A DNA stretch of 64,000 nt, from NCBI RefSeq assembly GCF_054482525.1, contig NZ_CM137006.1. One strand, written 5' to 3'. The position numbers and the translations under genes were made by a program. Numbering within the stretch: position 1 is the stretch's first letter; every line of letters begins with the position of its first letter. The notes beneath the pieces are model-generated. The model had not been told where the DNA came from. It worked only from the letters and a program-made list of their open reading frames with translations, and ran no database searches. Of the stretch, positions 19,654 to 63,198 are shown in pieces.

Positions 19654-25205
<5,552 letters not shown>

Positions 25206-25368
25206 TTAAACGGCTTAACAAAAATCCAGTAATATGGATTAAAAAGCAGACTAAACCCCAAATATTTCTTATGTTTTACTTTAGACCTATTCACGGCGGT
25301 TATTGTGTGCAAATACGCCTCTTGTTACAACCTTAACCCCAATGACCGATTTTCGGGAGAGCGACACC

Positions 25369-26007
25369 ATGAGTTTATTCGATAAAAAGCATCTGGTTTC
25401 CCCCGCCGATGCCCTGCCTGGACGTAACACCCCGATGCCCGTAGCCACACTGCATGCGGTCAACGGTCACTCAATGACCAATGTACCTGACGGAATGGAG
25501 ATTGCCATTTTTGCGATGGGTTGTTTCTGGGGTGTGGAGCGTCTGTTCTGGCAGTTACCCGGCGTTTACAGCACCGCCGCAGGCTATACCGGCGGCTATA
25601 CGCCAAATCCGACTTATCGGGAAGTGTGCTCCGGTGATACAGGTCATGCCGAAGCGGTACGCATTGTTTACGATCCTTCCGTCATCAGCTATGAACAGTT
25701 GCTACAAGTATTTTGGGAGAATCACGATCCCGCCCAGGGAATGCGTCAGGGCAATGACCACGGCACGCAGTATCGTTCAGCGATTTATCCACTGACCCCA
25801 GAACAGGATGCTGCTGCTCGCGCCAGTCTGGAACGTTTTCAGGCGGCGATGCTTGCCGCCGATGACGATCGTCACATCACCACGGAAATCGCGAACGCCA
25901 CACCGTTTTATTATGCCGAAGATGACCACCAGCAATATCTGCATAAAAACCCGTATGGTTACTGTGGAATTGGCGGAATTGGCGTCTGTCTGCCGCCGGA
26001 AGCATAG
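25369..26007 (+). CDS. msrA: peptide methionine sulfoxide reductase A
   Basis: 212 aa; GCFWG active-site motif. Confidence 0.95.
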
Positions 26008-26043
26008 CGTTACGGGTACAAATGTAGATTGTTGATAAAGTGC

Positions 26044-26150
26044 TATTTGTCTATGCCGGATGCGGCGTAAACGCCTTGCCAGGCCTACAAAATCGTCCAA
26101 AATCAATATATTGTGGGGACTGCGTAGGCCTGATCGGCGTAGCGCATCAG
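26044..26150. repeat. REP elements in msrA-ytfL spacer
   Basis: gccggatgcggcgtaaacgcc ... ggcctgatcggcgtagcgcatcag. Confidence 0.6.
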
Positions 26151-26329
26151 CCAGTTTTTCATTTATCAGCAGTCTGAATTTTAACCCTCTGGCGGCTTTA
26201 CAGTACCTTACGCTATACTAGCCACTGAAAATGCCGGTTCACTTTCTTCGAATCGGCTTTCAATGTGTATTTCACACAAATTAATCAACTTCCCCTTCCG
26301 AGGATCTGGCCTGAAAGGTCGGATAAGAT

Positions 26330-27673
26330 ATGTTAAACAGTATTTTAGTCATACTCTGCTTGATCGCTGTAAGTGCGTTCTTCTCGATGTCCGAGATCTC
26401 GCTTGCGGCCTCACGCAAAATCAAACTTAAACTGCTGGCTGATGAAGGCAATATAAATGCCCAACGCGTTCTGAATATGCAGGAAAATCCCGGCATGTTC
26501 TTTACCGTGGTCCAAATCGGTCTGAACGCAGTGGCGATTCTCGGCGGTATCGTCGGTGATGCGGCATTTTCTCCAGCTTTTCACAGCCTGTTCTCCCGCT
26601 ATATGTCGGCAGAACTCTCTGAGCAACTGAGCTTTATTCTCTCTTTCTCGTTAGTGACTGGCATGTTTATCCTGTTTGCGGATTTAACCCCGAAACGCAT
26701 CGGTATGATTGCGCCAGAAGCAGTGGCTTTGCGTATCATCAACCCGATGCGCTTCTGCCTGTACGTTTGCACCCCGCTGGTGTGGTTCTTCAACGGCCTG
26801 GCGAACATAATCTTCCGTATTTTCAAACTGCCAATGGTACGTAAAGATGACATCACTTCTGATGACATCTACGCGGTAGTGGAAGCCGGTGCGCTGGCGG
26901 GCGTGTTACGTAAACAGGAACACGAGCTGATTGAAAACGTCTTTGAGCTGGAATCCCGTACCGTTCCGTCTTCAATGACACCGCGTGAAAACGTGATTTG
27001 GTTTGATCTCCACGAAGATGAGCAAAGCCTGAAGAATAAGGTGGCGGAACATCCGCACTCTAAGTTCCTCGTCTGTAATGAAGATATTGACCACATCATC
27101 GGCTATGTCGATTCTAAAGACCTGCTGAACCGCGTGCTGGCTAACCAAAGCCTGGCACTGAACAGCGGCGTACAAATTCGCAACACGCTGATTGTGCCGG
27201 ATACGTTAACCCTTTCAGAGGCGTTGGAAAGTTTTAAAACCGCAGGTGAAGACTTCGCGGTGATCATGAACGAGTACGCGCTGGTGGTGGGGATCATCAC
27301 CCTCAACGACGTGATGACCACGCTGATGGGCGATCTGGTCGGTCAGGGGCTGGAAGAGCAGATTGTCGCCCGTGATGAGAACTCATGGCTGATTGACGGC
27401 GGCACCCCAATTGACGACGTCATGCGCGTGTTGGATATTGACGAGTTCCCGCAGTCGGGCAACTACGAAACCATTGGAGGCTTTATGATGTTTATGCTGC
27501 GTAAGATTCCGAAACGCACCGATTCGGTGAAATTCGCCGGCTACAAATTTGAAGTGGTGGATATCGATAACTACCGCATCGACCAGCTGCTGGTGACCCG
27601 AATCGACAGCAAGGCCACCGCCCTTTCGCCAAAATTGCCTGATGCTAAAGATAAAGAAGAAAGCGTCGCGTAA
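26330..27673 (+). CDS. ytfL: CNNM/CorC-family membrane protein (DUF21-CBS-CorC_HlyC)
   Basis: 447 aa; recognised YtfL. Confidence 0.9.
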   Translation: MLNSILVILCLIAVSAFFSMSEISLAASRKIKLKLLADEGNINAQRVLNMQENPGMFFTVVQIGLNAVAILGGIVGDAAFSPAFHSLFSRYMSAELSEQLSFILSFSLVTGMFILFADLTPKRIGMIAPEAVALRIINPMRFCLYVCTPLVWFFNGLANIIFRIFKLPMVRKDDITSDDIYAVVEAGALAGVLRKQEHELIENVFELESRTVPSSMTPRENVIWFDLHEDEQSLKNKVAEHPHSKFLVCNEDIDHIIGYVDSKDLLNRVLANQSLALNSGVQIRNTLIVPDTLTLSEALESFKTAGEDFAVIMNEYALVVGIITLNDVMTTLMGDLVGQGLEEQIVARDENSWLIDGGTPIDDVMRVLDIDEFPQSGNYETIGGFMMFMLRKIPKRTDSVKFAGYKFEVVDIDNYRIDQLLVTRIDSKATALSPKLPDAKDKEESVA

Positions 27674-27734
27674 CCCCCAGAAACATCAACGGCTCCTGAA
27701 TCAGGAGCCGTCTTATTACTGCATAGCACTTTGG

Positions 27735-27941
27735 TTAAGCCATCTCTGTTTGCAGACGCATAACCTGACGGTTAACTTCGGACATCACTGACAAATGCAG
27801 CTTATCCTTCACTTTTGGGATAAGAATCTTACCCTTATCAAATTCAAAAGCGCCAACGTCCTTGATGTATAACCGTCCACGGAACAGGATCTTTACGTAC
27901 TTCGCCACCTGAAGTGGGTTGTACCGTTGGAAAATTTTCAT
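27735..27941 (-). CDS. ytfK: small protein YtfK (DUF1107)
   Basis: 68 aa from internal Met of the 90-aa ORF-track frame. Confidence 0.85.
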
Positions 27942-28265
27942 TGTTATCTCCTGCTGAGTATTACGCCTGTGCGGTGCCACAATCGGCCCAACTATTATGA
28001 GGCGCAAATTTTAATGCTTAGTGACTATAGACTATCCGGGCAATGTTTCCACCGCGTATAACTTTTTTTACCTAAAGGTTACAATTATTCAGAATTATCT
28101 TTTTACCGAAGCGCCGTCTTCAGTATAAGCATTCATTTTTCATATGATTTGTGCGCTTGACCGCAAACTGGCATCACACTTGCGGGAAATTCGATAAATA
28201 GCACATATGATTAAAACTCAGACCCAAGTGGTCGGATCACCTGCATATCATAAGAAGGAAACACC

Positions 28266-28820
28266 ATGACCCTACGCAAGATTCTGGCACTCACCTGCCT
28301 GCTGTTGCCGATGATGGCTTCCGCACATCAGTTCGAAACCGGTCAGCGAGTGCCGCCGATTGGCATTACCGATCGGGGCGAGTTGGTGCTTGATAAAGAT
28401 CAGTTTAGCTACAAAACCTGGAACAGCGCGCAGTTAGTGGGAAAAGTGCGAGTACTGCAACATATTGCTGGTCGCACCTCTGCAAAAGAGAAAAATGCGA
28501 CACTGATTGAAGCGATTAAAGCTGCGAACTTACCGCACGATCGTTACCAGACCACCACCATTGTTAACACCGACGACGCAATTCCGGGTTCCGGCATGTT
28601 TGTGCGCAGCAGTCTGGAGAGTAATAAAAAGCTTTATCCCTGGTCGCAGTTTATTGTCGATAGCAATGGCGTCGCGCGCGGTGCCTGGCAGCTGGATGAA
28701 GAAAGTTCCGCTGTAGTGGTGCTGGATAAAGACGGTCGCGTGCAATGGGCCAAAGACGGGGCGCTCACACAGGAAGAGGTGCAGCAAGTGATGGACCTGC
28801 TGCAAAAGTTGCTCAAATAA
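28266..28820 (+). CDS. ytfJ: periplasmic protein YtfJ
   Basis: 184 aa with signal peptide. Confidence 0.9.
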   Translation: MTLRKILALTCLLLPMMASAHQFETGQRVPPIGITDRGELVLDKDQFSYKTWNSAQLVGKVRVLQHIAGRTSAKEKNATLIEAIKAANLPHDRYQTTTIVNTDDAIPGSGMFVRSSLESNKKLYPWSQFIVDSNGVARGAWQLDEESSAVVVLDKDGRVQWAKDGALTQEEVQQVMDLLQKLLK

Positions 28821-28853
28821 TGGCAATAACATAAATTCTGCAAAAATAATTTT

Positions 28854-28880
28854 CCCCTATCGTTATCTATGGGATAGGGG
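28854..28880. terminator. hairpin between convergent ytfJ and ytfI
   Basis: cccctatc/gatagggg stem with AT-rich flanks. Confidence 0.45.
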
Positions 28881-28909
28881 AATTAAGCCTCTGAGTTCTT
28901 ACGCCGAAC

Positions 28910-29821
28910 TCATACTGGTAACGCTAGTTGCTTTTTTTTAAACGCCTCAATGGTCGATTTATATTTCTCGCAAATCTTTTCTTCGGTAATATCACTATCT
29001 GCGGCCAGATTCGCACTTACTATCGCATCCACTTGTTCGGCTAATTCGACTTGTTGGCAACCTGCATTAACCAGAAAATTATAAATAAGAGAGTAGTCTT
29101 CATCCTCCAAAACAACAGAGGAACCATTACGAAAACGTTCATCCCCTCCATAGATTTTAAGCGCAAAGCCCAAAGATTCTATGACTATGGCAAAATTATC
29201 ATCAATTATTTTTTCGTAAATATACCATCCATCGCATTCTTTAATTCCACCTCCTGGAATTTGGAGGTCAAATTTACCCCGTTTTAATTTACTTACTATA
29301 TCATCCAATACAGCATAACCTAAAGACACGTCACCAAACGCCTGGCGAATATAACCTTTAATCCTTTCCGGTATGTCAGACTGTTTTTTCTGCAGAATAT
29401 CCCAGGCATACAATCTTCTGTTTTGTTCTAACGGAAACTCGCGGTTTTTGAAATCCATGAATGAGTTATACTCATTTATTGTTATGGGAATTTCTTCGTA
29501 TTCAAATCCACTGCCTCGCAATGTCATTATATATTCGGCACCGTTATCTTTAAGGCTGAAACTGATAAGAAACTTATCCATGGTGTTAACAGTTTCATTT
29601 TTTGATGAAAGTACCTGATAACTATTTTTATCAATCTGAGTTGCGCAACGAAAGAACTCCCTCAAAGTTAACAGGCTATCATAATTTGAAATCCAATCTT
29701 TTTTATTAAATGCATGCTGGATATTGTTAAAAAAATTGTTTGAATGTGTTTTTGTATGCGATGATTTTACGAATAACTCCACCGCACCAATAAAATTATT
29801 GTGTCTGATCCTGGGTAACAT
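28910..29821 (-). CDS. ytfI: hypothetical protein, AT-rich
   Basis: 303-aa ORF at the K-12 ytfI position; markedly lower GC than neighbours; no recognisable domain. Confidence 0.7.
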   Translation of the reverse strand: MLPRIRHNNFIGAVELFVKSSHTKTHSNNFFNNIQHAFNKKDWISNYDSLLTLREFFRCATQIDKNSYQVLSSKNETVNTMDKFLISFSLKDNGAEYIMTLRGSGFEYEEIPITINEYNSFMDFKNREFPLEQNRRLYAWDILQKKQSDIPERIKGYIRQAFGDVSLGYAVLDDIVSKLKRGKFDLQIPGGGIKECDGWYIYEKIIDDNFAIVIESLGFALKIYGGDERFRNGSSVVLEDEDYSLIYNFLVNAGCQQVELAEQVDAIVSANLAADSDITEEKICEKYKSTIEAFKKKQLALPV

Positions 29822-30032
29822 ATGGCTACCTTATTTTATTTGGTTATTTTATGTCGCCATTAAATATCTCATTATAGAAGTAAACTATCAAAAAACGCTC
29901 ATTATTAAAATGTAACTTATTAGCAATTGAATTTTTGCACTTTAAATACAATCTCTTTTTATTTATAACTTTTTAGGTTGGGAGAAATCAGGATGGCAGA
30001 ATCAGGAAATACACTGTTTCTGCCATCTGAAT

Positions 30033-30773
30033 TTAGTAAATAGACACTCTGAATCCCGGATTTAGGAACGACTCGCGCGGAGTGTAATCCAGCGGTTTAC
30101 CCTGCCAGTCGTGAACGTGCGCTCCGGCAGCTGCAGCCACAGCATGACCAGCGGCGGTGTCCCAAATATTCGTTGGTCCGAAGCGCGGGTACAGCTGCGC
30201 CTGTCCTTCCGCCACCAGGCAGAATTTCAGCGAAGAGCCGATGGACGTGGTCTGATGTTCGCCAAGCTGTTGCAGATACTCTTTCAGCTCCGCATCTGCA
30301 TGGGAACGGCTGATAACCACCAGCGGCGGGCGCGCATCGCGGACCTGAATCTGCTTGCGCACACCGCACTCTTCTTTCCAGGCTTTGCCTTCTGCCGCGC
30401 TGTACATTACGTTCATTACCGGCGCATACACCACACCTAAAATCGGTTTGCCGTGGTCGATGAGCGCAATGTTAACGGTAAATTCGCCATTACGTTTAAT
30501 AAACTCTTTAGTACCATCCAGCGGGTCTACCAGCCAGTAACGCTGCCAGTGCTGACGGACTTCCCAACCGGGAGGATCTTCTTCAGAAAGGACCGGAATA
30601 TCCGGTGTCAGCGTACGTAAACCGTCCATGATAACGGTGTGAGCGGCAATATCCGCTGCCGTTACCGGAGAATTGTCCGCTTTGCTGACGACGTCCATCG
30701 GTTTCGTCCCGTCGTAGACCTGCATAATGGCATCGCCTGCATTCCGTGCAAGCTGGCATACTTGATCTAACAT
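30033..30773 (-). CDS. cysQ: 3'(2'),5'-bisphosphate nucleotidase
   Basis: 246 aa; inositol monophosphatase-family motifs. Confidence 0.95.
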
Positions 30774-30962
30774 TTCTCCACCTCGTCTCTGTGAGCGGTG
30801 TTAACTTATTGTTTTACTTATACCCTATCGTTAATGAATGCGCCAACTGTGATAGTGTCATCATTTTCAAAGCGTAAAATTGTGGCATTCTTCACTGTTC
30901 TATAAGTAAGACGTTTATTCTCCCTTTTCTTTCGTATTCCCGATGATAAAAGGATGTCCCTG

Positions 30963-32906
30963 ATGATTAAGTTTAGCGCAACGCTCCTGGCCACGCTGAT
31001 TGCCGCCAGTGTGAATGCAGCGACGGTCGATCTGCGTATCATGGAAACCACTGATCTGCATAGCAACATGATGGATTTCGATTATTACAAAGACACCGCC
31101 ACGGAAAAATTCGGACTGGTACGTACCGCAAGTCTGATTAACGATGCCCGCAATGAAGTGAAAAACAGCGTACTGGTCGATAACGGCGATTTGATTCAGG
31201 GGAGTCCGCTTGCAGATTACATGTCGGCGAAAGGTTTAAAAGCAGGCGATATTCATCCGGTCTATAAGGCATTAAATACGCTGGACTATACCGTCGGCAC
31301 GCTTGGCAACCACGAGTTTAACTACGGTCTGGATTATCTGAAAAATGCGCTGGCGGGAGCGAAATTCCCTTATGTAAATGCCAACGTCATTGACGCCAGA
31401 ACCAAACAGCCAATGTTTACACCGTATTTAATTAAAGACACCGAAGTGGTCGATAAAGACGGAAAAAAACAGACGCTGAAGATTGGCTATATTGGCGTCG
31501 TCCCGCCACAAATCATGGGCTGGGATAAAGCTAATTTATCCGGGAAAGTGACGGTGAATGATATTACCGAAACCGTGCGCAAATACGTGCCTGAAATGCG
31601 CGAGAAAGGTGCCGATGTCGTTGTCGTTCTGGCGCATTCTGGTCTGTCTGCCGATCCGTATAAAGTGATGGCGGAAAACTCAGTTTATTACCTCAGTGAA
31701 ATTCCGGGTGTTAACGCCATTATGTTTGGTCATGCTCACGCCGTTTTCCCGGGTAAATATTTTGCTGATATCGAAGGGGCTGATATCGCCAAAGGCACGC
31801 TGAATGGTGTTCCGGCGGTAATGCCAGGCATGTGGGGCGATCATCTTGGTGTGGTCGACTTACAACTCAGTAATGACAGCGGTAAATGGCAGGTGACGCA
31901 GGCGAAAGCGGAAGCACGGCCGATTTACGACATCGCGAATAAAAAATCCCTCGCGGCGGAAGACAGCAAGCTGGTAGAAACACTCAAAGCCGATCACGAT
32001 GCCACACGCCAGTTCGTCAGCAAGCCAATCGGTAAATCTGCCGACAATATGTATAGCTATCTGGCGCTTGTGCAGGACGATCCGACCGTGCAGGTGGTGA
32101 ACAACGCGCAAAAAGCGTATGTCGAGCATTACATTCAGGGCGATCCGGATCTGGCGAAACTGCCGGTGCTTTCAGCTGCCGCACCGTTTAAAGTTGGTGG
32201 TCGCAAAAATGACCCGGCAAGCTATGTGGAGGTGGAAAAAGGTCAGCTGACTTTCCGTAATGCCGCCGATCTTTATCTCTATCCCAATACGCTGATTGTG
32301 GTGAAAGCCAGCGGTAAAGAGGTGAAAGAGTGGCTGGAGTGCTCCGCCGGACAGTTTAACCAGATTGATCCTAACAGCACGAAACCACAGTCACTCATCA
32401 ACTGGGATGGTTTCCGCACTTATAACTTTGATGTTATTGATGGTGTGAATTATCAGATTGATGTTACCCAACCCGCCCGCTATGACGGTGAATGTCAGGT
32501 GGTTAATGCCAATGCAGAGCGGATTAAGAACCTGACCTTTAACGGTAAGCCCATTGATCCGAACGCCATGTTCCTCGTTGCCACCAATAACTATCGCGCT
32601 TACGGCGGCAAATTTGCCGGTACGGGCGACAGCCATATCGCTTTTGCTTCACCGGATGAGAACCGCTCGGTGCTGGCAGCGTGGATTGCTGATGAGTCGA
32701 AACGTGCGGGGGAAATTCACCCGGCGGCAGATAACAACTGGCGTTTAGCACCAATAGCTGGCGATAAGAAACTGGATATCCGTTTCGAAACCTCTCCATC
32801 AGATAAAGCCGCGGCGTTTATTAAAGAGAAAGGGCAATATCCGATGAATAAAGTCGCGACCGATGATATCGGGTTTGCGATTTATCAGGTGGATTTGAGT
32901 AAGTAA
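30963..32906 (+). CDS. cpdB: 2',3'-cyclic-nucleotide 2'-phosphodiesterase / 3'-nucleotidase
   Basis: 647 aa from ATG at 30963; signal peptide; metallophosphoesterase motifs (GNHEFN). Confidence 0.95.
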
Positions 32907-32921
32907 TACACTTCTTTTTCG

Positions 32922-33022
32922 GCCTGCAAATCATCAACCGCATCCGGCATTTATTGGCGGATGCGATGCTGGCGCATCTTATCCGTCCTACAAGTCATAC
33001 ACCGTAGGCCGCGCATCCTGCA
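32922..33022. repeat. REP-like palindromic units after cpdB
   Basis: gcatccggcatttattggcggatgcg ... ccgtaggccgcgcatcc. Confidence 0.5.
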
Positions 33023-33023
33023 G

Positions 33024-33404
33024 TTACGCCGCACGTTCATCCCGCACCGCCAACACCTCGGGCAAATTCAACTCAATCCAGTCCGCCAGTGCAGCAACCT
33101 TTTCGCTCACCTGCTCGCCCAGCGGCGTGAGGCTATATTCCACATGCGGCGGCACCACCGGATACGCGATACGGTTAAGAAAACCATCCTGCTCTAGCGC
33201 CTGTAACGACTGCGCAAGCATCTTTTCACTCACCCCGCCGATTTTGCGCCGCAGGTCGCTAAAGCGATGAGTACCTTCGCGTAGCGCCACCAGAATCAAC
33301 ACCCCCCAACGGCTGGTGACGTGTTTCAACACCTCGCGCGACGGGCACTGTTCCGCAAAGAGATTACCCTCTTTCAGTTGTTGCGACAGGCTAACCTGAC
33401 TCAT
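33024..33404 (-). CDS. ytfH: HxlR-family transcriptional regulator
   Basis: 126 aa from internal Met; divergent from qorB. Confidence 0.85.
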   Translation of the reverse strand: MSQVSLSQQLKEGNLFAEQCPSREVLKHVTSRWGVLILVALREGTHRFSDLRRKIGGVSEKMLAQSLQALEQDGFLNRIAYPVVPPHVEYSLTPLGEQVSEKVAALADWIELNLPEVLAVRDERAA

Positions 33405-33492
33405 TTCATACTTACCTTTTTGTGCGTACTTACTAAAAGTAAGTTTAGGTGTTAGCGTATTTAAACACAAGACAAAACGATGGAGACTTCCC

Positions 33493-34353
33493 ATGATCGC
33501 TATTACTGGTGCCACTGGCCAACTTGGTCATTATGTTATTAACTCCTTACTGAAAACAGTTCCTGCCAGCCAAATAGTGGCTATCGCTCGTAATCCGGCA
33601 AAAGCCCAGGCACTGACAGCACAAGGCATTACCGTGCGTCAGGCTGACTACGGCGATGAAGCCGCACTGACATCTGCACTTCAGGGAGTGGAAAAACTAC
33701 TGCTGATCTCTTCCAGCGAAGTGGGTCAACGTGCCCCGCAGCATCGTAATGTTATTAATGCCGCAAAGGCGGCTGGTGTGAAATTTATCGCTTATACCAG
33801 TCTGCTTCACGCGGATAAATCTCCGCTCGGCCTCGCCGATGAGCACATTGAGACGGAGAAAATGTTGGCTGATTCTGGCATCGTTTACACCCTGCTGCGC
33901 AACGGCTGGTACAGCGAAAACTACCTCGCCAGCGCCCCGGCAGCACTGGAACACGGCGTATTTATCGGTGCGGCGGGCGATGGCAAAATCGCCTCAGCAA
34001 CGCGGGCAGATTATGCGGCAGCTGCGGCACGCGTGATTAGCGAAGCCGGTCACGAAGGCAAGGTTTACGAACTGGCGGGCGATAGTGCCTGGACGTTGAC
34101 ACAGTTAGCGGCGGAGCTGACCAAACAGAGCGGCAAACAGGTTACCTATCAAAATCTGAGTGAAGCTGATTTCGCCGCGGCACTGAAAAGCGTCGGACTG
34201 CCTGACGGACTGGCGGATATGCTGGCGGATTCTGACGTTGGCGCATCGAAAGGCGGTCTGTTTGATGACAGCAAAACGCTGAGCAAATTGATTGGCCGCC
34301 CAACGACAACGTTAGCCGAAAGCGTAAGCAATCTTTTTAATGTTAATAAGTAG
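33493..34353 (+). CDS. qorB: NAD(P)H:quinone oxidoreductase (NmrA-like)
   Basis: 286 aa; N-terminal GATGQLG Rossmann motif. Confidence 0.9.
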   Translation: MIAITGATGQLGHYVINSLLKTVPASQIVAIARNPAKAQALTAQGITVRQADYGDEAALTSALQGVEKLLLISSSEVGQRAPQHRNVINAAKAAGVKFIAYTSLLHADKSPLGLADEHIETEKMLADSGIVYTLLRNGWYSENYLASAPAALEHGVFIGAAGDGKIASATRADYAAAAARVISEAGHEGKVYELAGDSAWTLTQLAAELTKQSGKQVTYQNLSEADFAAALKSVGLPDGLADMLADSDVGASKGGLFDDSKTLSKLIGRPTTTLAESVSNLFNVNK

Positions 34354-34452
34354 TTAATTAAAGTGGCATCCTCCCGCATCCTCTCTGATAATGACGGGAT
34401 GCCGGGAGCAATCATGTCTTCTTCCTGAACGTTTCTTCTGACAGATCAATGG

Positions 34453-35427
34453 ATGCCAGTAATGATTAGCGGCGTGCTGTACGCCCTGTTAGCAGGGTTG
34501 ATGTGGGGGCTTATTTTTGTCGGGCCGTTGATCGTACCGGAATACCCGGCGATGTTGCAGTCGATGGGGCGTTATCTGGCGTTAGGGTTAATTGCGCTGC
34601 CCATTGCCTGGCTGGGACGCGTGCGTCTGCGTCAGTTGGCGCGTCGCGACTGGCTTACCGCCTTGATGCTCACTATGATGGGCAACCTCATCTATTACTT
34701 CTGCCTTGCCAGTGCCATTCAACGTACTGGTGCGCCTGTTTCCACGATGATTATCGGCACCCTGCCGGTGGTGATTCCCGTTTTTGCCAATCTGCTTTAT
34801 AGCCAGCGCGACGGCAAACTCGCGTGGGGAAAACTCGCCCCGGCACTGGTTTGTATTGGCATCGGCCTGGCGTGTGTGAATATTGCTGAGTTAAACCACG
34901 GACTCCCCGATTTTGACTGGGCACGTTATACCTCTGGCATCGTGCTGGCGTTAGTTTCCGTGGTCTGCTGGGCATGGTATGCCCTGCGCAACGCCCGCTG
35001 GCTGCGGGAAAATCCCGACAAACATCCGATGATGTGGGCGACGGCGCAGGCGCTGGTCACGCTGCCGGTTTCGCTTATCGGCTATCTCGTCGCTTGTTAC
35101 TGGCTGAATACGCAAACGCCGGACTTCTCCCTACCTTTTGGCCCCCGTCCGCTTGTATTTGTTAGCCTGATGATTGCGATAGCTGTGCTTTGCTCATGGG
35201 TCGGCGCACTTTGCTGGAACGTCGCCAGCCAGCGATTACCAACGGTGATTCTCGGGCCACTGATTGTCTTCGAAACGCTGGCAGGTTTGCTGTACACCTT
35301 TTTGTTACGCCAGCAAATGCCGCCACTAATGACGCTGAGCGGTATCGCACTGTTAGTGGTTGGCGTGGTCATTGCGGTCAGAGCAAAACCAGAAAAACCT
35401 TTAACTGAATCTGTCTCAGAAAGTTGA
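34453..35427 (+). CDS. ytfF: DMT-superfamily inner membrane protein
   Basis: Polytopic membrane ORF at conserved position; exact start uncertain. Confidence 0.85.
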   Translation: MPVMISGVLYALLAGLMWGLIFVGPLIVPEYPAMLQSMGRYLALGLIALPIAWLGRVRLRQLARRDWLTALMLTMMGNLIYYFCLASAIQRTGAPVSTMIIGTLPVVIPVFANLLYSQRDGKLAWGKLAPALVCIGIGLACVNIAELNHGLPDFDWARYTSGIVLALVSVVCWAWYALRNARWLRENPDKHPMMWATAQALVTLPVSLIGYLVACYWLNTQTPDFSLPFGPRPLVFVSLMIAIAVLCSWVGALCWNVASQRLPTVILGPLIVFETLAGLLYTFLLRQQMPPLMTLSGIALLVVGVVIAVRAKPEKPLTESVSES

Positions 35428-39572: not shown

Positions 39573-40781
39573 TCAGGCTGTCGCCTGAATCATTTCGGTG
39601 GGTTCCTGCTTCAACGAGCGGCCTGACTGCACCATCTCTCCACAGGCAAGAACGGCGTGTCCCGCCGCTAAAATGTTACGAGCGCCGTTTACATCGGCGT
39701 TCGCTGTATATCCACATACCTGGCATCTGAATTTACTTTGTGACAGGCGATTTTCTTTCGCTGTATGACCACAGCACGCGCAACGCTGGCTTGTGTACGC
39801 TGGCGGAACAGCAAGCACCTGACCGCCACTCCAGAGCTGCTTGTACTCAAGCTGGCGGCGCATTTCATACCAGCCCTGATCCAGTATCGAACGGTTTAAA
39901 CCTGATTTTGCCCGGACATTGCGCCCCGGCTGGCTGACCGTACCCGCTGCTGACTTTGACATGTTGCTGACCTTCAAATCCTCAATGACTATCATTGCGT
40001 GGTTTTTGCTGACGGTCGTTGTGACTTTGTGAAGGTAGTCCCTGCGGATATTTGCGATACAGGAATGCAGTCGCTGTATTTTGCGTTTCTGCTTCTGCCA
40101 GTTGTTGCTGAATTTGACCTTGCGGCTTAACTGTCGCTGAAGTCTCGCCAGCGTCTTCTGGTTTTTCTGAAAACTGTTTACAGGCTCAAAGACTGTGCCA
40201 TCTGACAGCGTGGCGAGTTTAGCCACGCCAGCATCCAGCCCGACCATTGATGCTGAAGGGTGAACCGGAGTTGATACTTCACTTTCTGTCTGAATACTGA
40301 TGTACCACTTACCGCAGGACTGGCTGACCGTGACATTTTTCACAACACCCGTGACCTGACGGCTATTCCGGTAGCGCATCCAGCCCAGTTTCGGCAGAAA
40401 AATACGGCTGTTTTCCTGATCGAGCTTAACGCCCTGCGGGTAGCGGAATGCATCATTCTGTCCCCGCTTTTTGAATCGGGGAAAAGCAGCCCGCTTCTGG
40501 AAGAAGTTTTTGTAAGCCCGCTCAAGGTCTTTCAGTGATTGTTGCAATGGCTGTGAGGGCGAATCTTTAAGCCATTGCGTTTCAGTGGCGTTTTTCCACT
40601 CAACCAGCCAGGAAGCCATTTTCCCGTAAGGGATGTATTTATTACCGGCCTTATGATTCTCATTCTGAAGCGCCAGAGCACGATTGAAAACGAAACGACA
40701 TGCGCCTGCGAAGCGCCTCATTTCACACTCCTGTTGACCACCTGGTCTTAACTGGAATTTAAATGCCTGTAATCGTTTCAC
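39573..40781 (-). CDS. tnpB: TnpB (IS200/IS605 OrfB; RuvC-like RNA-guided nuclease family)
   Basis: 402 aa; GLDAGV (RuvC-I Asp), VIEDL (RuvC-II Glu), CxxC...CxxC zinc finger, DVNGARNI (RuvC-III Asp). Confidence 0.85.
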
Positions 40782-40788
40782 AGGTCAA

Positions 40789-41262
40789 ATGATACTTTGG
40801 TCTGTGAAAAAAGAAACCGATATCCGACGGGGAAGGCATTGTGTTTTCCTGATGCATGTTCACCTGGTCTTTGTCACCAGATACCGACGTCAGATTTTTG
40901 ACTATGACGCGACAGAAAAACTACGCACTTACTTTTCAAATGTATGTGCTGATTTTGAAGCTGAACTGGTTGAAATGGATGGCGAACCAGATCACGTCCA
41001 TTTGTTAATTAACTATCCTCCCAAACTGGCGATATCCAGTCTGGTAAACAGCCTCAAAGGCGTATCGGGTAGGTGACTGCGACGAGATCGACCAGATATT
41101 GCAGTCAGGTATTACTACAAAGGCGTTTTGTGGAGTCCTGGCTATTTTGCCAGTAGCTGCGGAGGTGCGCCAATATCCGTCATCCGCCAATACATTGAAC
41201 AACAGCAAACACCTGGTCAGGTGGAAAACCGCGCCTTATATCCCCGCCCTGAAGGACGGGGT
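40789..41262 (+). pseudogene. tnpA: IS200-type TnpA (Y1 HuH transposase) interrupted by in-frame TGA at 41074-41076
   Basis: 95-aa N-terminal part with HuH-like HVHLL motif; same frame continues after TGA with the conserved LWSPGYF C-terminal motif, then reads through the terminal hairpin. Confidence 0.7.
41242..41261. repeat. sub-terminal hairpin CCCCGCCCTGAAGGACGGGG (TnpA-proximal end)
   Basis: Perfect hairpin read from sequence. Confidence 0.55.
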
Positions 41263-41843: not shown

Positions 41844-42638
41844 ATGACATTACCAACCACTATTTATTCATTTCCTGCATATTCACCCCGTTTTTCGTCC
41901 ACCGACAAACCAGTAAAATTAAAATTTCATCAATACGCACGCGCTACATTACTTTCAAATCGTGGAAGAGACCATAATTGCGATGGCAGACATACTGTTG
42001 AGATCCACAAACTAGATCTCTCAGACTGGCAAGCATTCAATAAACTAGCGATGGCGTGTAATGCTTACGATGGAATAACAATGAATGGTGATAATTCTTT
42101 TGGATGGAACCATGAAGCTACATTAGATAATATTCACGCCCAGAAATACAATAAAGCTTACGCGGGTGCGAGGTTAACCGCAGAACTGAAATATTTATTG
42201 CAAGATGTCGAATCCTTCGAACCCAACAGTAAATACACAATACACGAGGTTGTTTTGGGTCCAGGTTATGGTACTCCAGACTATACCGGCCAAACGATAG
42301 GATACGTTGTAACCCTTCCTGCCCAAATGCCTAATTGCTGGTCATCTGAACTACCAACAATCGATCTTTATATCGACCAACTTCGCACTGTTACAGGCGT
42401 TTCTAATGCCCTCGGATTCATCATTGCTGCATTGCTAAACGCGTATTCTGATTTACCCCATGATTTGAAAATTGGTCTGCGTTCCTTATCAGGTTCAGCC
42501 GCAATCTACTCGGGTTTGGGTTTCGAGCGAGTGCCGCAGGAGCGAGACATCAGTTGCGCTCGTATGTATCTAACGCCAGCAAACCATCCTGACTTATGGA
42601 CACAAGAGAATGGTGAATGGATCTACTTGCGAAACTAA
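41844..42638 (+). CDS. yjfZ: hypothetical protein YjfZ
   Basis: 264 aa; AT-rich; conserved position before rplI. Confidence 0.85.
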   Translation: MTLPTTIYSFPAYSPRFSSTDKPVKLKFHQYARATLLSNRGRDHNCDGRHTVEIHKLDLSDWQAFNKLAMACNAYDGITMNGDNSFGWNHEATLDNIHAQKYNKAYAGARLTAELKYLLQDVESFEPNSKYTIHEVVLGPGYGTPDYTGQTIGYVVTLPAQMPNCWSSELPTIDLYIDQLRTVTGVSNALGFIIAALLNAYSDLPHDLKIGLRSLSGSAAIYSGLGFERVPQERDISCARMYLTPANHPDLWTQENGEWIYLRN

Positions 42639-58730: not shown

Positions 58731-59132
58731 TTAGTGTGAATATTCTTCTGTAATTTCAGCCAGATCCAATGCGTTATCTACCAGCGAGGTTATCTCAAGC
58801 AGGATATCTTCAAGAGAAGATTTAAGCGATAACGCCCCGAAAACAATGTAATACTCTTCCTGTTGTACGCTGGAGATCCCTACCGATGACAACGGCATCA
58901 TCTTCTGATTTCTTAATAAGAAGGTATTAAATTCATCTGGATTGCTGATACTACTTACCGGACAAATAAAGGTTTCGATAATCATTTGGCGGGAAGTAAA
59001 TAGAATATTGATTTGCAAATCGCCATAATCATTCATTTTAATAGTTAATGCGTTCTCGCCATTTGTTACATCAATATTTTGTTCAGGTACAGTTTGCAGC
59101 GCCGTCGCCAGCACCAACGGATTCCATGTCAT
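58731..59132 (-). CDS. yjfI: DUF2170-family protein
   Basis: 133 aa. Confidence 0.88.
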   Translation of the reverse strand: MTWNPLVLATALQTVPEQNIDVTNGENALTIKMNDYGDLQINILFTSRQMIIETFICPVSSISNPDEFNTFLLRNQKMMPLSSVGISSVQQEEYYIVFGALSLKSSLEDILLEITSLVDNALDLAEITEEYSH

Positions 59133-59323: not shown

Positions 59324-60925
59324 CTACAAGTCTAACGACCGCTTCCACAACATAAAGTCAAACTGTTCAAGTTTGTCTGCCTTCACGACGTAGTCCTTAC
59401 TGGCAGTTTCAATAACTTTTTCAAATAATTCTCTACTCACATCTTCCAGCGGAGTGCCGTCAATCACTGGGCCACAGTCGAAATCAATCATGTCAGACAA
59501 TCGTCTGGCAATCGTGCTGTTGGTGGATATTTTTAACACCGGAACAATCGGGTTACCGGTGGGCGTACCAAGACCCGTCGAGAAGATAACCACATTACAT
59601 CCTGCTGCTACCAATCCGGTTACCGCGTCCACGTCATTGCCCGGAGTACACACCAACGATAATCCACTATCGGGCATCGGTTCAGCGTAATCGCATACAC
59701 TCACAATTGGCGCTCGCCCGCCTTTTTTCGCTGCTCCGGTAGATTTTATTGCGTCAGTAATCAACCCATCCGCAATGTTGCCAAAACTTGGGTTATCCGC
59801 AATGGTGGTATCGAAAAAGTTCGCTGTCTTTTCGTAGCCTTGCATTAGATTGAGGAACTTTTTTTTATCCTCAAGATTAATACAACGCTTAACCATATCA
59901 CCTTCTGCCCCACATAATTCTGGAAATTCTGCTAACCCGGAAGCGCCACCAAGCGTTGTCAACCAGTCAGAAACCAGCCCCATTGCAGGGTTGCCGGAGA
60001 TACCAGAAAAACCATCGGAACCACCACACTTCATCCCCACTTTGAGACAGGAAAGAGGGACCTCTACTCTTTCTGTCGGCTTCACCGCTTTCATTGCCTC
60101 GAAAGTCTGCTGTAAAGCGGTCTGCATCATCCGCTCTTCGCTGTCCCACTCCTGTTGGAGAAAGTAGAGCGCAGGTTTATCAAATTCAGGATTACGTCTC
60201 GCCAGCGCATCCTTAAACATTTTCTGCTGCGCTTTTTCACATCCTAAACTGAATACCGTCATACCGATTACATTCGGATGGTCAGCATAAGCAGCTAATA
60301 CATCGCACATAGTTTCACAGTCTGAAGTTGCACCACCACAACCACTGGTGACCGTAATACAGCGAACACCTTCAATATGCGGGAACATTCTCGCGGTTTC
60401 GATCAGTTCATCGCTACCGGACGTCAGATTAAGAGCAAACTTTTTCAGTGAGTTATTGGTATAACCCAAAGCATCATTCAAAGCATTGGTTAACTTACTG
60501 ACATTACGGTTCTCGCAAAATACCAATGGAAAGACTAACCAGTAACTGGCAGTACCCACTCTGCCATCGTCACGGACATAACCTTTAAAAGTGCGGGTGC
60601 TCCATTCAGAGACATCCGGTGCCTGCCAGTGGTAGGGTTCAACATCCTCCAGTGTGACAGGAGCTGCATAGTGGCGAATATTATCAACGGTAATCGCTTC
60701 TCCCTTAACGATGGGACGCGTGGCCTTGCCAACTGGCGTACCGTACATCGAAACAATGCCATCCAGAGGAATATCTTGCGTCGCAAACTTATGTTTAGCC
60801 TTAACATCAGTTACTAACGTTATGTTGTCGTCATCCCACGAGTACGATTCTCCAGCGTGCAGGTCTTTCAACGCGACAATGAGATTATCGTTACTGTCGA
60901 TACGTAATATTTTTTGCATAATCAT
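59324..60925 (-). CDS. UxaA/GarD-family sugar-acid dehydratase (altronate / galactarate dehydratase-like)
   Basis: 533 aa; N-terminus resembles UxaA (MQYIKIHALDNVAVAL-type SAF region); Cys-rich central region; length between UxaA and GarD. Confidence 0.75.
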   Translation of the reverse strand: MIMQKILRIDSNDNLIVALKDLHAGESYSWDDDNITLVTDVKAKHKFATQDIPLDGIVSMYGTPVGKATRPIVKGEAITVDNIRHYAAPVTLEDVEPYHWQAPDVSEWSTRTFKGYVRDDGRVGTASYWLVFPLVFCENRNVSKLTNALNDALGYTNNSLKKFALNLTSGSDELIETARMFPHIEGVRCITVTSGCGGATSDCETMCDVLAAYADHPNVIGMTVFSLGCEKAQQKMFKDALARRNPEFDKPALYFLQQEWDSEERMMQTALQQTFEAMKAVKPTERVEVPLSCLKVGMKCGGSDGFSGISGNPAMGLVSDWLTTLGGASGLAEFPELCGAEGDMVKRCINLEDKKKFLNLMQGYEKTANFFDTTIADNPSFGNIADGLITDAIKSTGAAKKGGRAPIVSVCDYAEPMPDSGLSLVCTPGNDVDAVTGLVAAGCNVVIFSTGLGTPTGNPIVPVLKISTNSTIARRLSDMIDFDCGPVIDGTPLEDVSRELFEKVIETASKDYVVKADKLEQFDFMLWKRSLDL

Positions 60926-60952
60926 ATTCTTCCAGTCAGATGTTCAATCTTA

Positions 60953-62254
60953 TTAACTGTATGCTTTTGCTGCCTGTTGGCTCTTTTGCAGCAATCCAAT
61001 CAATAATGCGCAGCCGATAGTAATTACAGACAACGCCATCAATCCGGCGATGCTGCTATCCATTGCCCGATCAACCTCAACACGGATAAGAGGAGCAAGG
61101 AACGAGCAGAAAGCGCCCATCGTGGTGCAAAAACCGATCCCCGCAGCCAGTGCCGGACCAGTAAGAAGTTGTGGAGGGAAAGTCCAGAATATTGGCTGTA
61201 CTGAGAGGAAACCAACCGCACTTAAACAAAGTGCACCAATCGCCACAACAGGCCCCGCAAATGCGGAAAGGGCAAGGCCGACAGCAGCAGCCAACATACA
61301 CATAACCGAAATGGCCACACGCCGGGAAGGATTGCGGTCAGCAATTCGCGGAATGTAATAGACGCCAAAAGCAGAGCACGCCCATGGTATTGCCGCGACT
61401 AATGACTGCTTAAAGCCAAGGCTTTCTCCCATCAGCGATGCAACCTGTGACGGAAGGAAAAACATTAAACCATATACTGATATCTGGATGGTGCCGTAGA
61501 TTAATGCCAGATGCCAAACTTTGGCATTTTTCAATGCTGAAATCACTGAACTGGTTTCTGTTTTCTGTCGTTCAGATTCCAGTTGCTTATTCAAAGCGTC
61601 TTTTTCTTCCTGGGTAAGAAATCGCGCTTTCGTCGGATTATCATCAAGGTAGAACCAGGCAAAGATACCAAGCACTAATGCCGGCAATCCCTCAATGACA
61701 AACATCCAGAACCATCCTGGACGTCCCATCCAGCCATGTAGTTCAAGTAAAGCTCCCGATATTGGCGAACCGAGCGTTAACGCCAGCGGCACCCCCAACA
61801 CAAATATTCCCACGACCGATCCGCGAACCTTGTTAGGAAAATAAATGGATGCGAGCAGTAAAATGCCGGGATAGAACCCCGCCTCGCCCAGCCCTAACAG
61901 AAAGCGCAAAATAATAAATTGCGTTTCACTGGTGACAAATCCCGTCATTGCCGAGAGAAGGCCCCAAATTGCAGTTGTAATACTTAACCACTTTTGTGCG
62001 CCGATTTTATTGAGGATCAGGTTAGCTGGAATGCCGAAAAGTGCATAGGCAGCGAAAAATATTCCTGCACCGAGAGCGAATGCCGACTCTGATAATCCAA
62101 TATCCAGTTTCATTGCATCTTTGGCAAAGCCAACATTTACCCGATCAATAAAGGCAACAAAATACATTATGAACATTAAGGGTACTAAACGTTTCCACGA
62201 TTTTTGAATTGCGGAATTCAACAGCGGATTATCGTATTGGGTTATATTAGCCAT
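60953..62254 (-). CDS. ACS-family MFS transporter (hexuronate/aldarate transporter-like)
   Basis: 433 aa; N-terminal FIDRVNVGFA motif typical of ExuT/GudP/GarP-type transporters. Confidence 0.75.
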   Translation of the reverse strand: MANITQYDNPLLNSAIQKSWKRLVPLMFIMYFVAFIDRVNVGFAKDAMKLDIGLSESAFALGAGIFFAAYALFGIPANLILNKIGAQKWLSITTAIWGLLSAMTGFVTSETQFIILRFLLGLGEAGFYPGILLLASIYFPNKVRGSVVGIFVLGVPLALTLGSPISGALLELHGWMGRPGWFWMFVIEGLPALVLGIFAWFYLDDNPTKARFLTQEEKDALNKQLESERQKTETSSVISALKNAKVWHLALIYGTIQISVYGLMFFLPSQVASLMGESLGFKQSLVAAIPWACSAFGVYYIPRIADRNPSRRVAISVMCMLAAAVGLALSAFAGPVVAIGALCLSAVGFLSVQPIFWTFPPQLLTGPALAAGIGFCTTMGAFCSFLAPLIRVEVDRAMDSSIAGLMALSVITIGCALLIGLLQKSQQAAKAYS

Positions 62255-62304
62255 AAATAAATCCTTAGTTCTGTTGGTAAGATATTCTATTTATAGGTTT
62301 TATA

Positions 62305-63198
62305 TTATTTATAATAATCGGTGACAGATAAAATTTCCTGCAATCTCCGGGATTGAATATCATCAAGTATATTAAATGGTGAAGAACACCGTTCTGATTG
62401 AATAACCCCCTTTAACTGAAGGGCTTTTTTGAAAGTGGGAATAAAAGGAGAATTCACGCTGTAAACGGCCATTAGTTGATCGACTATCTGCTGATGCTGC
62501 GCGACTGCAAGTAAATCGTCATTCATGAATGCTTGCATCCAGGAGGCAAAAAATTCAGGGACAATATTGGATAAACCACCAATACAGCCATCTCCACCAG
62601 ATAGTATGTTGTGGGCAAAATTATTGTCATATCCTGCATACACTTCAAAATGAGGGATATTTTTCTTTACGGTATTGATAACCTGCGCAGTATGGAAAGC
62701 ATCAGGGACGGTATCTTTCATACCAATAATATTGGGATACTTATCTGCCAGTCGTAAACAAATCTCTGGTGATACGCTGTACCCGGTTCTCTCCGGGAAG
62801 TTATAAATAAAAATATGAGCCGGGGTTTGGCTTGCAATCGTACTGTAGAAATCAAAAATAGCTTCATCATCCAGAGGGAAATAATAAGGACTGATGATCA
62901 TCACACCATCCAATCCTTGCTCCCAGGCGTAATTGGCCAGTGATATTGATTCATTGACGTCCATGCGACTGGCTCCGGCATAAGCCTTCATATCGCCTCG
63001 GGAAAACTCACTACAGGTTTTAATCATTTGGCGGGCGTTTTCCATATTAAGCGAAAAAAACTCACCAGTACTGCCCATCACAACAAACCCGGACACGTGA
63101 TTTTTAATAAAATCATAAACCTGAGTGTTTTGCTCTGGATCGATTCGCCCTTGTTCATCAAATATGGTGACAACGGGGGTTATGTAACGACTTTTCAT
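62305..63198 (-). CDS. DapA/NAL-family Schiff-base lyase (candidate 2-keto-3-deoxy sugar-acid aldolase or 5-dehydro-4-deoxyglucarate dehydratase)
   Basis: 297 aa; GSTGE motif, YNFPERTGY motif and catalytic-lysine context IGMKDT match the DHDPS/NAL family. Confidence 0.75.
   Translation of the reverse strand: MKSRYITPVVTIFDEQGRIDPEQNTQVYDFIKNHVSGFVVMGSTGEFFSLNMENARQMIKTCSEFSRGDMKAYAGASRMDVNESISLANYAWEQGLDGVMIISPYYFPLDDEAIFDFYSTIASQTPAHIFIYNFPERTGYSVSPEICLRLADKYPNIIGMKDTVPDAFHTAQVINTVKKNIPHFEVYAGYDNNFAHNILSGGDGCIGGLSNIVPEFFASWMQAFMNDDLLAVAQHQQIVDQLMAVYSVNSPFIPTFKKALQLKGVIQSERCSSPFNILDDIQSRRLQEILSVTDYYK

What the first reader, a model, noticed from the sequence alone, without database searches (positions are those of the whole stretch)
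28910..30032. AT-rich ORF ytfI and AT-rich upstream region
The 303-aa ORF and about 200 bp upstream are much more AT-rich than neighbouring core genes and the protein has no recognisable domain. This fits an old horizontally acquired gene, possibly H-NS silenced.
Basis: seen in the sequence. Interest (0 to 1): 0.25.

Follow-up and report, generated by a model that had tools for sequence, protein, structure and literature searches.

The report
AT-rich accessory gene ytfI islet
This is ytfI, a 1.2-kb AT-rich piece of foreign DNA carrying one orphan gene, wedged between two core E. coli genes and already published as an H-NS-bound strain-specific insertion, so the finding is real but ordinary.

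Summary
ORF 28910-29821(-) has 35.7% GC and 32.9% GC3, the lowest of 53 long ORFs in a 50.6% GC window. The 211 bp upstream have 28% GC. The ORF is the ytfI allele of E. coli PCN033 (100% identity; 96.7% nt identity to K-12).

ytfI sits on a ~1.22-kb insert between the stop codons of the convergent core genes ytfJ and cysQ. It is present in 1,622 of 5,426 complete E. coli genomes. In the others, and in about 74 of 80 species-representative loci (Citrobacter, Salmonella, Klebsiella, Enterobacter and others), the two genes abut or overlap, so the empty site is ancestral.

The protein is a true orphan. It has no Pfam or NCBIfam hit, and no relative outside Escherichia/Shigella among 1.84 billion representative proteins, phages, plasmids or viral contigs. 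It is coding (dN/dS 0.21-0.44; intact alleles down to 70% identity at the same locus) but dispensable (frameshift, IS1 deletion). Its AT-richness is at equilibrium and is not ameliorating.

H-NS binding to ytfI in K-12 is published (Higashi 2016, S10 Fig). The protein's function remains unknown because structure prediction failed. Three unrelated cargos occupy the same junction in other lineages.

The parts
28817..30036 (.). The ~1.22-kb AT-rich insert (islet) between the ytfJ stop and the cysQ stop. Boundaries are good to about +/-5 bp because of AT-rich microhomology.
   Evidence: Empty sites read ...GTTGCTCAA|TAAATAGACAC..., while occupied sites read ...GTTGCTCAA[ATAATGGC...GAATTTAG]TAAATAGACAC. 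The ytfJ-start to cysQ-start span is 1,288 bp in empty genomes and 2,508 bp here.
28910..29821 (-). ytfI coding sequence: 303 aa, 34.9 kDa, pI 5.3, soluble, with no transmembrane segment. The window allele has TGA at codon 304 where K-12 has TTA (312 aa).
   Evidence: dN/dS is 0.21-0.44 among alleles, with no internal stops. The stop-codon difference was read from the sequences.
29822..29984 (-). Very AT-rich upstream region of ytfI: a Shine-Dalgarno-like TAAGGT 7 nt before the ATG, and a weak sigma-70-like match (TTGATA, 17 nt, TG-GATATT at 29891-29863).
   Evidence: The promoter match is only a consensus hit, no more frequent than in shuffles (5 found against 4.8 expected).
29985..30034 (.). 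Strong hairpin (arms of 21 nt) that overlaps the first two bases of the cysQ stop codon (30033-30035) and lies inside the insert. It is probably the cysQ transcript's 3' stem-loop, supplied by the insert.
   Evidence: I1; dG -21.4 kcal/mol on the minus strand and -25.8 on the plus strand, z -4.8 and -5.0, with 0 of 200 shuffles as stable. It is conserved in the 78% allele locus.
28852..28882 (.). Perfect 10-bp stem hairpin between the ytfJ stop and the ytfI stop. On the minus strand it is followed by AAAAUUAUUUUU, making it a terminator-like element for ytfI and possibly a bidirectional one.
   Evidence: I13. MFE of the 80-nt stretches containing it is -17.3 (plus strand) and -19.5 (minus strand) kcal/mol, with z only -1.5 and -1.9. 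The simple terminator scan did not call it.
28266..28820 (+). ytfJ, the core gene on the left flank. Its last codons were remodelled by the insert (...QKLLK* here against ...HKLINK* or ...HKLLNK* at empty sites).
30033..30773 (-). cysQ, the core gene on the right flank. Its C-terminus (...VSIY*) is unchanged by the insert.

Best explanation
The finding is a single-gene islet of foreign, AT-rich DNA about 1.22 kb long. It was inserted, early in the diversification of Escherichia, exactly where the stop codons of the convergent core genes ytfJ and cysQ overlap. The insert carries a complete gene unit: an AT-rich upstream region with a Shine-Dalgarno sequence, the ytfI ORF, and hairpins that now end the ytfI and cysQ transcripts.

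Because the DNA has 28-36% GC and twice the window's density of A/T tracts and TpA steps, it is a nucleation site for H-NS. H-NS coats the insert in K-12 and reaches the neighbouring genes, so ytfI is probably kept largely silent under ordinary growth. Binding is published; silencing is inferred.

The product is a soluble, acidic 35-kDa protein found only in Escherichia and Shigella. It is a real coding gene under relaxed purifying selection, but it is dispensable: absent from about 70% of E. coli and inactivated in some lineages. Its biochemical role is unknown. My guess, held at low confidence, is a conditionally expressed accessory protein of the conflict or host-interaction type rather than a housekeeping enzyme.

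Shown here: composition, insertion polarity, orphan status, coding constraint, dispensability and lack of amelioration. Taken from the literature: H-NS occupancy in K-12. Inferred: silencing in this strain, the role of the hairpins, and the protein's role.
For: Composition. Identity as ytfI at the K-12 locus.

Accessory status: 1,622 of 5,426 genomes carry it, and about 3,800 have a uniform 1,288-bp empty span.

Polarity: among 80 species-representative loci, about 74 have 29 bp or less between the ends of the YtfJ and CysQ alignments, including four Escherichia representatives. Only one (L014) has ytfI.

Age and vertical residence: the 70%, 78% and 88% alleles all lie between cysQ and ytfJ. 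ytfI dS tracks flank dS, for example 0.71 against 0.62 for cysQ.

Coding: dN/dS is 0.21-0.44, and the alleles have no internal stops.

Orphan status.

No amelioration: 53 AT>GC against 51 GC>AT polarised changes, giving an implied equilibrium GC of 0.366 against the actual 0.357.

H-NS: Higashi 2016, PMC4720273, S10 Fig.

Dispensability: IS1-mediated deletion, a 1-bp deletion in a T7 run in the P0007 lineage with 729 member sequences, and truncated Shigella forms.
Against: H-NS binding and silencing were not and cannot be measured here for this strain, and no paper in the searchable library reports ytfI derepression in an hns mutant. The high-affinity H-NS motif TCGATAAATT is barely enriched (1.65 per kb against 1.06). 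The promoter and the 28852-28882 terminator are weak consensus-level calls. No donor, mobility gene, tRNA or convincing target duplication was found, so the insertion mechanism is unknown. dN/dS is about 10-fold higher than in cysQ and cpdB, so the constraint is weak. Nothing supports any particular protein function: AlphaFold pLDDT is 49.9 and 42.4, and fold searches are non-significant.
Confidence: 0.8

Rival explanations
1. ytfI is functionless cargo: an old insert whose ORF persists by drift and is slowly being lost. On this view the only biological effect of the locus is that of its AT-rich DNA on local H-NS binding.
For: It is absent from about 70% of E. coli. It has been inactivated independently by a frameshift, an IS1 deletion and truncations. 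dN/dS of 0.21-0.44 is far above the flanks (0.01-0.15). There are no homologues anywhere else. AlphaFold finds no confident fold. The literature offers no phenotype beyond screen hits.
Against: dN/dS stays well below 1 over dS up to 0.85. The reading frame is intact in alleles only 70% identical. A neutral 900-bp AT-rich ORF would be expected to acquire stop codons over that divergence. A long block of residues (177-293) holds 56 invariant positions among the alleles.
Confidence: 0.2
2. ytfI is ancestral to the region and the 'empty' genomes are deletions, so it is a native gene whose AT-richness has another cause.
For: ytfI occurs in at least two Escherichia species-level lineages at the same site, which on its own could suggest ancestry within the genus.
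Against: About 74 of 80 species-representative loci across at least 15 genera have the same abutting or overlapping ytfJ/cysQ ends as empty E. coli. The empty junction sequence is conserved from E. coli HS to other Escherichia species. The insert's GC is 15 points below its flanks.
Confidence: 0.03
3. YtfI is a conflict or host-interaction protein: a single-gene anti-phage defence, an immunity protein or a secreted effector, kept silent by H-NS until needed.
Against: All the hits are sub-threshold or come from a low-confidence model. There is no partner gene, no known defence-system architecture, no homologue in phages or plasmids, and no published phage or virulence phenotype. K-12 retains the gene without a functional T3SS (own knowledge).
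Confidence: 0.12

Closest known systems
[quoted passage not shown] 2016 (PLoS Genet, PMC4720273, S10 Fig)
   Same: Same gene at the same locus between ytfJ and cysQ. It is 96.7% nt identical over the 1,212-bp ytfJ-cysQ spacer (28821-30032), and about 95% aa identical to the 312-aa form P0001 that ends like K-12 YtfI. It has the same AT-rich upstream region and hairpins.
   Different: The window allele (PCN033 type) ends 9 codons earlier (TGA instead of TTA at codon 304) and belongs to a separate allele class, which RefSeq annotates as 'hypothetical protein'. H-NS occupancy was measured only in K-12.
Xenogeneic silencing of AT-rich horizontally acquired genes by H-NS (established concept in Salmonella and E. 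coli; own knowledge plus PMC4720273)
   Same: GC far below the genome mean, enrichment in A/T tracts and TpA steps, strain-variable presence, faster protein evolution than the core flanks, and published H-NS occupancy.
   Different: This is a minimal single-gene islet with no mobility genes, rather than a pathogenicity island or prophage. Derepression in an hns mutant is not documented in the searchable literature.
Classical genomic islands and integrative elements (integrase, tRNA or other att site, flanking direct repeats)
   Same: A discrete insert with sharp boundaries at a site used repeatedly by unrelated cargo in different lineages.
   Different: There is no integrase or transposase, no tRNA within +/-5 kb, and no terminal inverted repeats. 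At most there is an ambiguous AT-rich microhomology of 4-5 bp at the ends.
Taxonomically restricted (orphan) genes of Enterobacteriaceae
   Same: No detectable homologue outside one genus, low GC, short to medium length, elevated dN/dS and low AlphaFold confidence.
   Different: Its origin by insertion of foreign DNA is demonstrable from the empty sites. That argues against de novo birth from local non-coding sequence.

Membership tests
YtfI protein (E. coli K-12 b4215 orthologue) | Full-length high identity to K-12 YtfI, encoded between ytfJ and cysQ | tested here: met
   96.7% nt identity over the 1,212-bp query spanning the gene, and about 95% aa identity to the 312-aa form P0001, which ends like K-12 YtfI. 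The flanking genes are the same.
H-NS-silenced horizontally acquired DNA | AT content markedly above the genome or flank average | tested here: met
   GC is 0.357 (ORF) and 0.28 (upstream) against 0.506 for the window; z is -3.3 to -3.8. A/T tracts are 23 per kb against 10, and TpA steps 88 per kb against 46.
H-NS-silenced horizontally acquired DNA | Acquired: absent from related genomes, with an intact ancestral empty site | tested here: met
   Absent in about 3,800 of 5,426 E. coli genomes. About 74 of 80 species-representative loci have abutting ytfJ/cysQ ends.
H-NS-silenced horizontally acquired DNA | H-NS physically occupies the segment | not testable with these tools
   Published for the K-12 allele by ChAP-seq (PMC4720273, S10 Fig). 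It has not been measured for this strain.
H-NS-silenced horizontally acquired DNA | Transcription rises when hns is deleted | not testable with these tools
   None of the 12 papers mentioning ytfI, as far as I read them, reports this.
Genomic island / integrative mobile element | Integrase, recombinase or transposase gene within or next to the insert | tested here: not met
   The only ORF of 100 aa or more in the insert is ytfI, and the neighbours are core genes.
Genomic island / integrative mobile element | Flanking direct repeats (att sites or target-site duplication) or terminal inverted repeats | tested here: inconclusive
   Only an AT-rich 4-5 bp motif (AAATA) recurs at both ends. The best terminal inverted repeat is 22 nt at 73% complementarity.
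Genomic island / integrative mobile element | Insertion next to a tRNA or tmRNA gene | tested here: not met
   ARAGORN finds no tRNA in 24000-35000.
Any curated protein family (Pfam-A, NCBIfam) | Match above the curated threshold | tested here: not met
   No families even at E <= 10. A profile search against PDB sequences gave 0 hits.
Known anti-phage defence proteins (PADLOC-DB) | Significant match to a defence-system model, with the system's partner genes nearby | tested here: not met
   The only hit is Cas6b at E = 7.6e-4 and 17.4 bits over 41 residues. There is no CRISPR or cas context.
Orphan / taxonomically restricted gene | No homologue outside a narrow clade in exhaustive searches | tested here: met
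   phmmer against 1.84 billion representatives found only fragments at 68% identity or more, plus one chance repeat-protein hit. The word-indexed search of 5.8 billion clusters found only E. coli and Shigella. Phages, plasmids and viral contigs gave nothing.

The most novel reading that the evidence does not exclude
YtfI founds an unrecognised protein family with a role in conflict or host interaction (phage defence, immunity or a secreted effector). In addition, the overlapping ytfJ/cysQ stop codons are a genuine integration hotspot, served by an unknown mobility-gene-free mechanism that has delivered at least four unrelated cargos in different enterobacterial lineages.
Probability: 0.08. Interest if true: 0.5.

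Novelty: already known. Interest (0 to 1): 0.15.

Why it matters
The finding matters little in its own right. ytfI is a named K-12 gene, and its status as a strain-specific, H-NS-bound insertion is already published. The added value here is descriptive. The insertion polarity is now fixed by outgroups. The gene is shown to be an Escherichia-restricted orphan under weak purifying selection. Its AT-richness is at compositional equilibrium rather than ameliorating, a small counter-example to the simple amelioration clock for dating transfers. The ytfJ/cysQ stop-codon overlap turns out to be a recurrent landing site for unrelated single-gene or two-gene cargo. It could serve as a compact model for how H-NS-coated orphan genes persist for long periods, but nothing here opens a long-standing question.

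Tried and rejected
**Protein family scans.** Pfam, NCBIfam and a PDB-sequence profile search returned nothing. PADLOC and PHROGs gave only marginal hits (Cas6b E = 7.6e-4; phrog_3250 of unknown function, E = 1.1e-3). I rejected these as noise because the scores are low, the stretches short and the sequence compositionally biased.

**Homology searches.** The exhaustive phmmer search found no distant relatives. The single outlier, P0036, is a 1,100-aa repetitive surface protein and a chance hit.

**Search for a donor.** tblastn against phages gave only E >= 0.1 hits to Dickeya jumbo phages. The four 'plasmid' hits are records of 0.66-4.9 Mb at 95-99% identity, which I take to be chromosomal DNA filed as plasmid. 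The viral-contig scan found nothing.

**RNA and transcription signals.** Rfam found no RNA family in 28600-30200. Promoter-like sites are no more frequent than in shuffles.

**H-NS motif.** The high-affinity H-NS motif is barely enriched.

**Literature.** A search for b4215 found nothing relevant. The other ytfI mentions are list entries: an ASKA overexpression hit for HOCl resistance, a lactoferricin-B chip hit, a multi-stress network, and a disputed sigma-32 ChIP site.

**Deletion hypothesis.** I considered and rejected the idea that the empty sites are deletions.

Full report
**1. The observation**

The ORF reported at 28910-29821 exists on the minus strand and encodes 303 aa. Its GC content is 35.7% and its third-position GC is 32.9%. 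Both are the lowest of the 53 ORFs of at least 120 aa that I extracted from the window, whose overall GC is 50.6%. The adjacent genes have GC3 of 58.9% (ytfJ-like, 28266-28820) and 57.9% (cysQ-like, 30033-30773). The 211 bp between the ORF's start and the next gene (29822-30032) have 28% GC.

Compared with all sliding windows of the same lengths, these values lie 3.3 to 3.8 standard deviations below the mean. The few windows that are as low overlap this same locus. Codon usage referenced to 30 ordinary genes of the window is also atypical: CAI is 0.575 against 0.686 +/- 0.05, and rare codons are 8.3% against 3.4%. No Pfam-A or NCBIfam model matches, even at E <= 10.

**2. Identity**

The 1,212-bp spacer segment (28821-30032) is 100% identical to E. 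coli PCN033 and 96.7% identical to K-12, where the gene is annotated 'ytfI: protein YtfI' (312 aa). The neighbours are msrA, paeA (ytfL), ytfK, ytfJ, cysQ and cpdB. The window allele stops nine codons earlier than K-12 because codon 304 is TGA instead of TTA (sequences).

**3. An accessory insert, not a core gene**

Only 1,622 of 5,426 complete E. coli genomes carry the segment. Almost all genomes (5,420) carry the flanks. In about 3,800 of them the distance from the ytfJ start to the cysQ start is a uniform 1,288 bp instead of 2,508 bp. In strain HS the two convergent genes overlap by 11 bp at their 3' ends.

Base-level comparison places the insert between ...GTTGCTCAA and TAAATAGACAC..., at window ~28817-30036, about 1.22 kb. 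Only an ambiguous AT-rich microhomology of 4-5 bp is shared at the ends.

To decide between insertion and deletion, I fetched the ytfJ neighbourhood from 80 species-representative genomes and located YtfJ, CysQ and YtfI in each by tblastn.

- In about 74 loci, the gap between the ends of the YtfJ and CysQ alignments is 29 bp or less. These cover Citrobacter, Salmonella, Klebsiella, Raoultella, Enterobacter, Kosakonia, Kluyvera, Trabulsiella, Leclercia and others, as well as E. whittamii and three other Escherichia representatives.
- Only one locus has ytfI: L014, a species-level Escherichia lineage labelled E. coli, carrying the 70% allele.

The empty, overlapping arrangement is therefore ancestral and ytfI is an insertion.

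**4. How old, and is it a real gene?**

Database searches recovered intact alleles 88%, 78% and 70% identical to the window protein. All of them lie between cysQ and ytfJ. Pairwise synonymous divergence of ytfI tracks that of the flanks. For the window against the 70% allele, dS is 0.71 for ytfI, 0.62 for cysQ and 0.35 for cpdB. For the window against K-12, it is 0.106 against 0.073 and 0.116.

So the gene has resided at this site for as long as these Escherichia lineages have been diverging. It has been inherited, or exchanged by homologous recombination, together with its flanks. 'Old' is justified.

dN/dS is 0.21-0.44, and none of the alleles has an internal stop. The ORF is therefore protein-coding and under purifying selection. 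That selection is roughly ten-fold weaker than on cysQ (0.00-0.03) or cpdB (0.02-0.04).

The gene is also dispensable:

- One strain has lost most of it to an IS1-associated deletion.
- A lineage represented by 729 database sequences carries a 1-bp deletion in a T7 run at about codon 30.
- Shigella entries are truncated.

**5. No amelioration**

I polarised substitutions among five alleles, using the most divergent one as the outgroup. This gave 53 AT>GC and 51 GC>AT changes. The implied equilibrium GC is 0.366, essentially the current 0.357. The same procedure on cysQ gives 0.50 against 0.548.

The numbers are small and the parsimony is crude. Even so, the gene shows no drift towards host composition despite its long residence. 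A plausible reading (inference) is that a weakly expressed, H-NS-covered gene simply sits at the AT-biased mutational equilibrium.

**6. Orphan status and failed attempts at function**

An exhaustive phmmer search of 1.84 billion representative proteins returned only fragments of the same protein (68% identity or more). The single exception was a chance hit to a repetitive surface protein. Nothing was found in phage genomes (best E = 0.1) or viral contigs. The four 'plasmid' hits are records of 0.66-4.9 Mb at 95-99% identity, which I take to be chromosomal DNA filed as plasmid. A profile search against PDB sequences gave no hit.

The protein is 34.9 kDa, acidic (pI 5.3) and hydrophilic, with no transmembrane segment.

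Marginal hits to PADLOC Cas6b and PHROG 3250 are treated as noise.

The literature offers only list entries: an overexpression hit for HOCl resistance (PMC8228696), a lactoferricin-B chip hit, a multi-stress network and a disputed sigma-32 ChIP-chip peak (PMC3870955).

**7. Anatomy of the insert**

- Upstream of the ATG there is a Shine-Dalgarno-like TAAGGT at 7 nt.
- There is one weak extended -10 promoter match at 29891-29863, but such matches are no more frequent here than in shuffled sequence.
- A perfect 10-bp stem at 28852-28882 lies just 3' of ytfI. On the minus strand it is followed by a U-rich run.
- A much stronger hairpin at 29985-30034 overlaps the first two bases of the cysQ stop codon. 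Its dG is -21 to -26 kcal/mol, z is about -5, and 0 of 200 shuffles fold as well. It is conserved in the 78% allele locus.

Ancestrally the two flanking genes overlapped, so the insert now supplies the 3' end structures for their transcripts (inference). No Rfam family matches, and there is no tRNA within 5 kb. No integrase or transposase and no convincing terminal repeats were found.

**8. H-NS**

I cannot measure binding. Higashi et al. 2016 (PMC4720273) use exactly this locus as their example (S10 Fig). In K-12, ytfI is a strain-specific inserted sequence bound by H-NS, with signal extending to cpdB, cysQ, ytfJ and ytfK. In SE11 and SE15, which lack ytfI, no H-NS binding occurs there.

The window's insert is 96.7% identical to K-12's, with twice the window's density of A/T tracts and TpA steps. 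The same behaviour is therefore expected here (inference). I found no report of derepression in an hns mutant, so 'silenced' remains an inference from occupancy.

**9. A recurrent landing site**

The same few base pairs have received unrelated cargo in other lineages:

- A 385-aa pentapeptide-repeat protein (33% GC) in E. albertii and in an albertii-like 'E. coli'.
- A radical-SAM/SPASM enzyme with a Cys/Gly/Ser-rich membrane protein in Citrobacter youngae.
- An S11 D-Ala-D-Ala carboxypeptidase homologue in Kluyvera.

Whether this reflects a targeting mechanism is open. The alternative is that the stop-codon overlap of two convergent genes is one of the few places where an insertion is harmless.

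**10. Verdict**

It is also essentially already published for K-12. The protein's function remains unknown.

I commit to 'xenogeneically silenced, dispensable accessory orphan gene' at about 0.8 confidence for the locus-level mechanism. I assign about 0.2 to the view that the protein has no current function. I assign about 0.1 to a conflict or host-interaction role. Interest is low.

Noticed in passing
L019:5792-6949 (E. albertii NBRC 107761) and L005:2733-3890 (albertii-like 'E. coli' SCPM-O-B-9504): A different AT-rich (33% GC) single gene sits at exactly the same ytfJ/cysQ junction. It encodes a 385-aa pentapeptide-repeat protein (Pfam PF00805, E = 7.6e-12).
   Followed up: partly
L051:5550-7681 (Citrobacter youngae ATCC 29220); L073:5550-6462 and L077:5550-6463 (Kluyvera): There are further independent cargos at the same junction. 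C. youngae has a Cys/Gly/Ser-rich predicted membrane protein plus a radical-SAM/SPASM enzyme, possibly a peptide-modification pair. Kluyvera genomosp. 1 has an S11 D-Ala-D-Ala carboxypeptidase homologue; in K. cryocrescens the equivalent 0.9-kb gap has no intact long ORF.
   Followed up: partly
window 41844-42638 (+): yjfZ (DUF2686 family, 264 aa) is a second compositional outlier, with GC 42.8%, GC3 36.6% and the lowest window-referenced CAI (0.503). It may be another old acquired gene.
   Followed up: no
window 39573-41214: Next to yjfZ there is an IS200/IS605 tnpA pseudogene, a TnpB/InsQ RNA-guided endonuclease gene (382-aa ORF at 39573-40721) and a TetR-family gene fragment, according to the PCN033 annotation.
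   Followed up: no
window 58731-59132 and 59324-63198 (-): yjfI is AT-rich (GC 38.8%). The adjacent IclR / DapA-family / MFS / UxaA-family cluster has GC 41-47% and looks like a strain-variable sugar-acid utilisation islet.
   Followed up: no
L095:1134-2256 (P0007 lineage) against window 29730-29736: The T7 homopolymer at codons ~29-31 of ytfI is T6 in a lineage with 729 database sequences, which frameshifts the gene. I did not examine whether this tract varies repeatedly (slippage) or the change happened once.
   Followed up: partly
L006:5967-6421 and L007:4146-5126: In genomes with the 70% ytfI allele (P0010), an IS (DDE_Tnp_1/DUF772 transposase) lies immediately downstream of ytfI, where ytfJ would be expected.
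   Followed up: no
window 28812-28820 against L004:1040-1058: The insertion changed the C-terminus of YtfJ (...QKLLK* in occupied sites against ...HKLINK* or ...HKLLNK* in empty ones). It also removed the antisense overlap between the ytfJ and cysQ 3' ends, which could alter convergent-transcription interference between the two genes.
   Followed up: no
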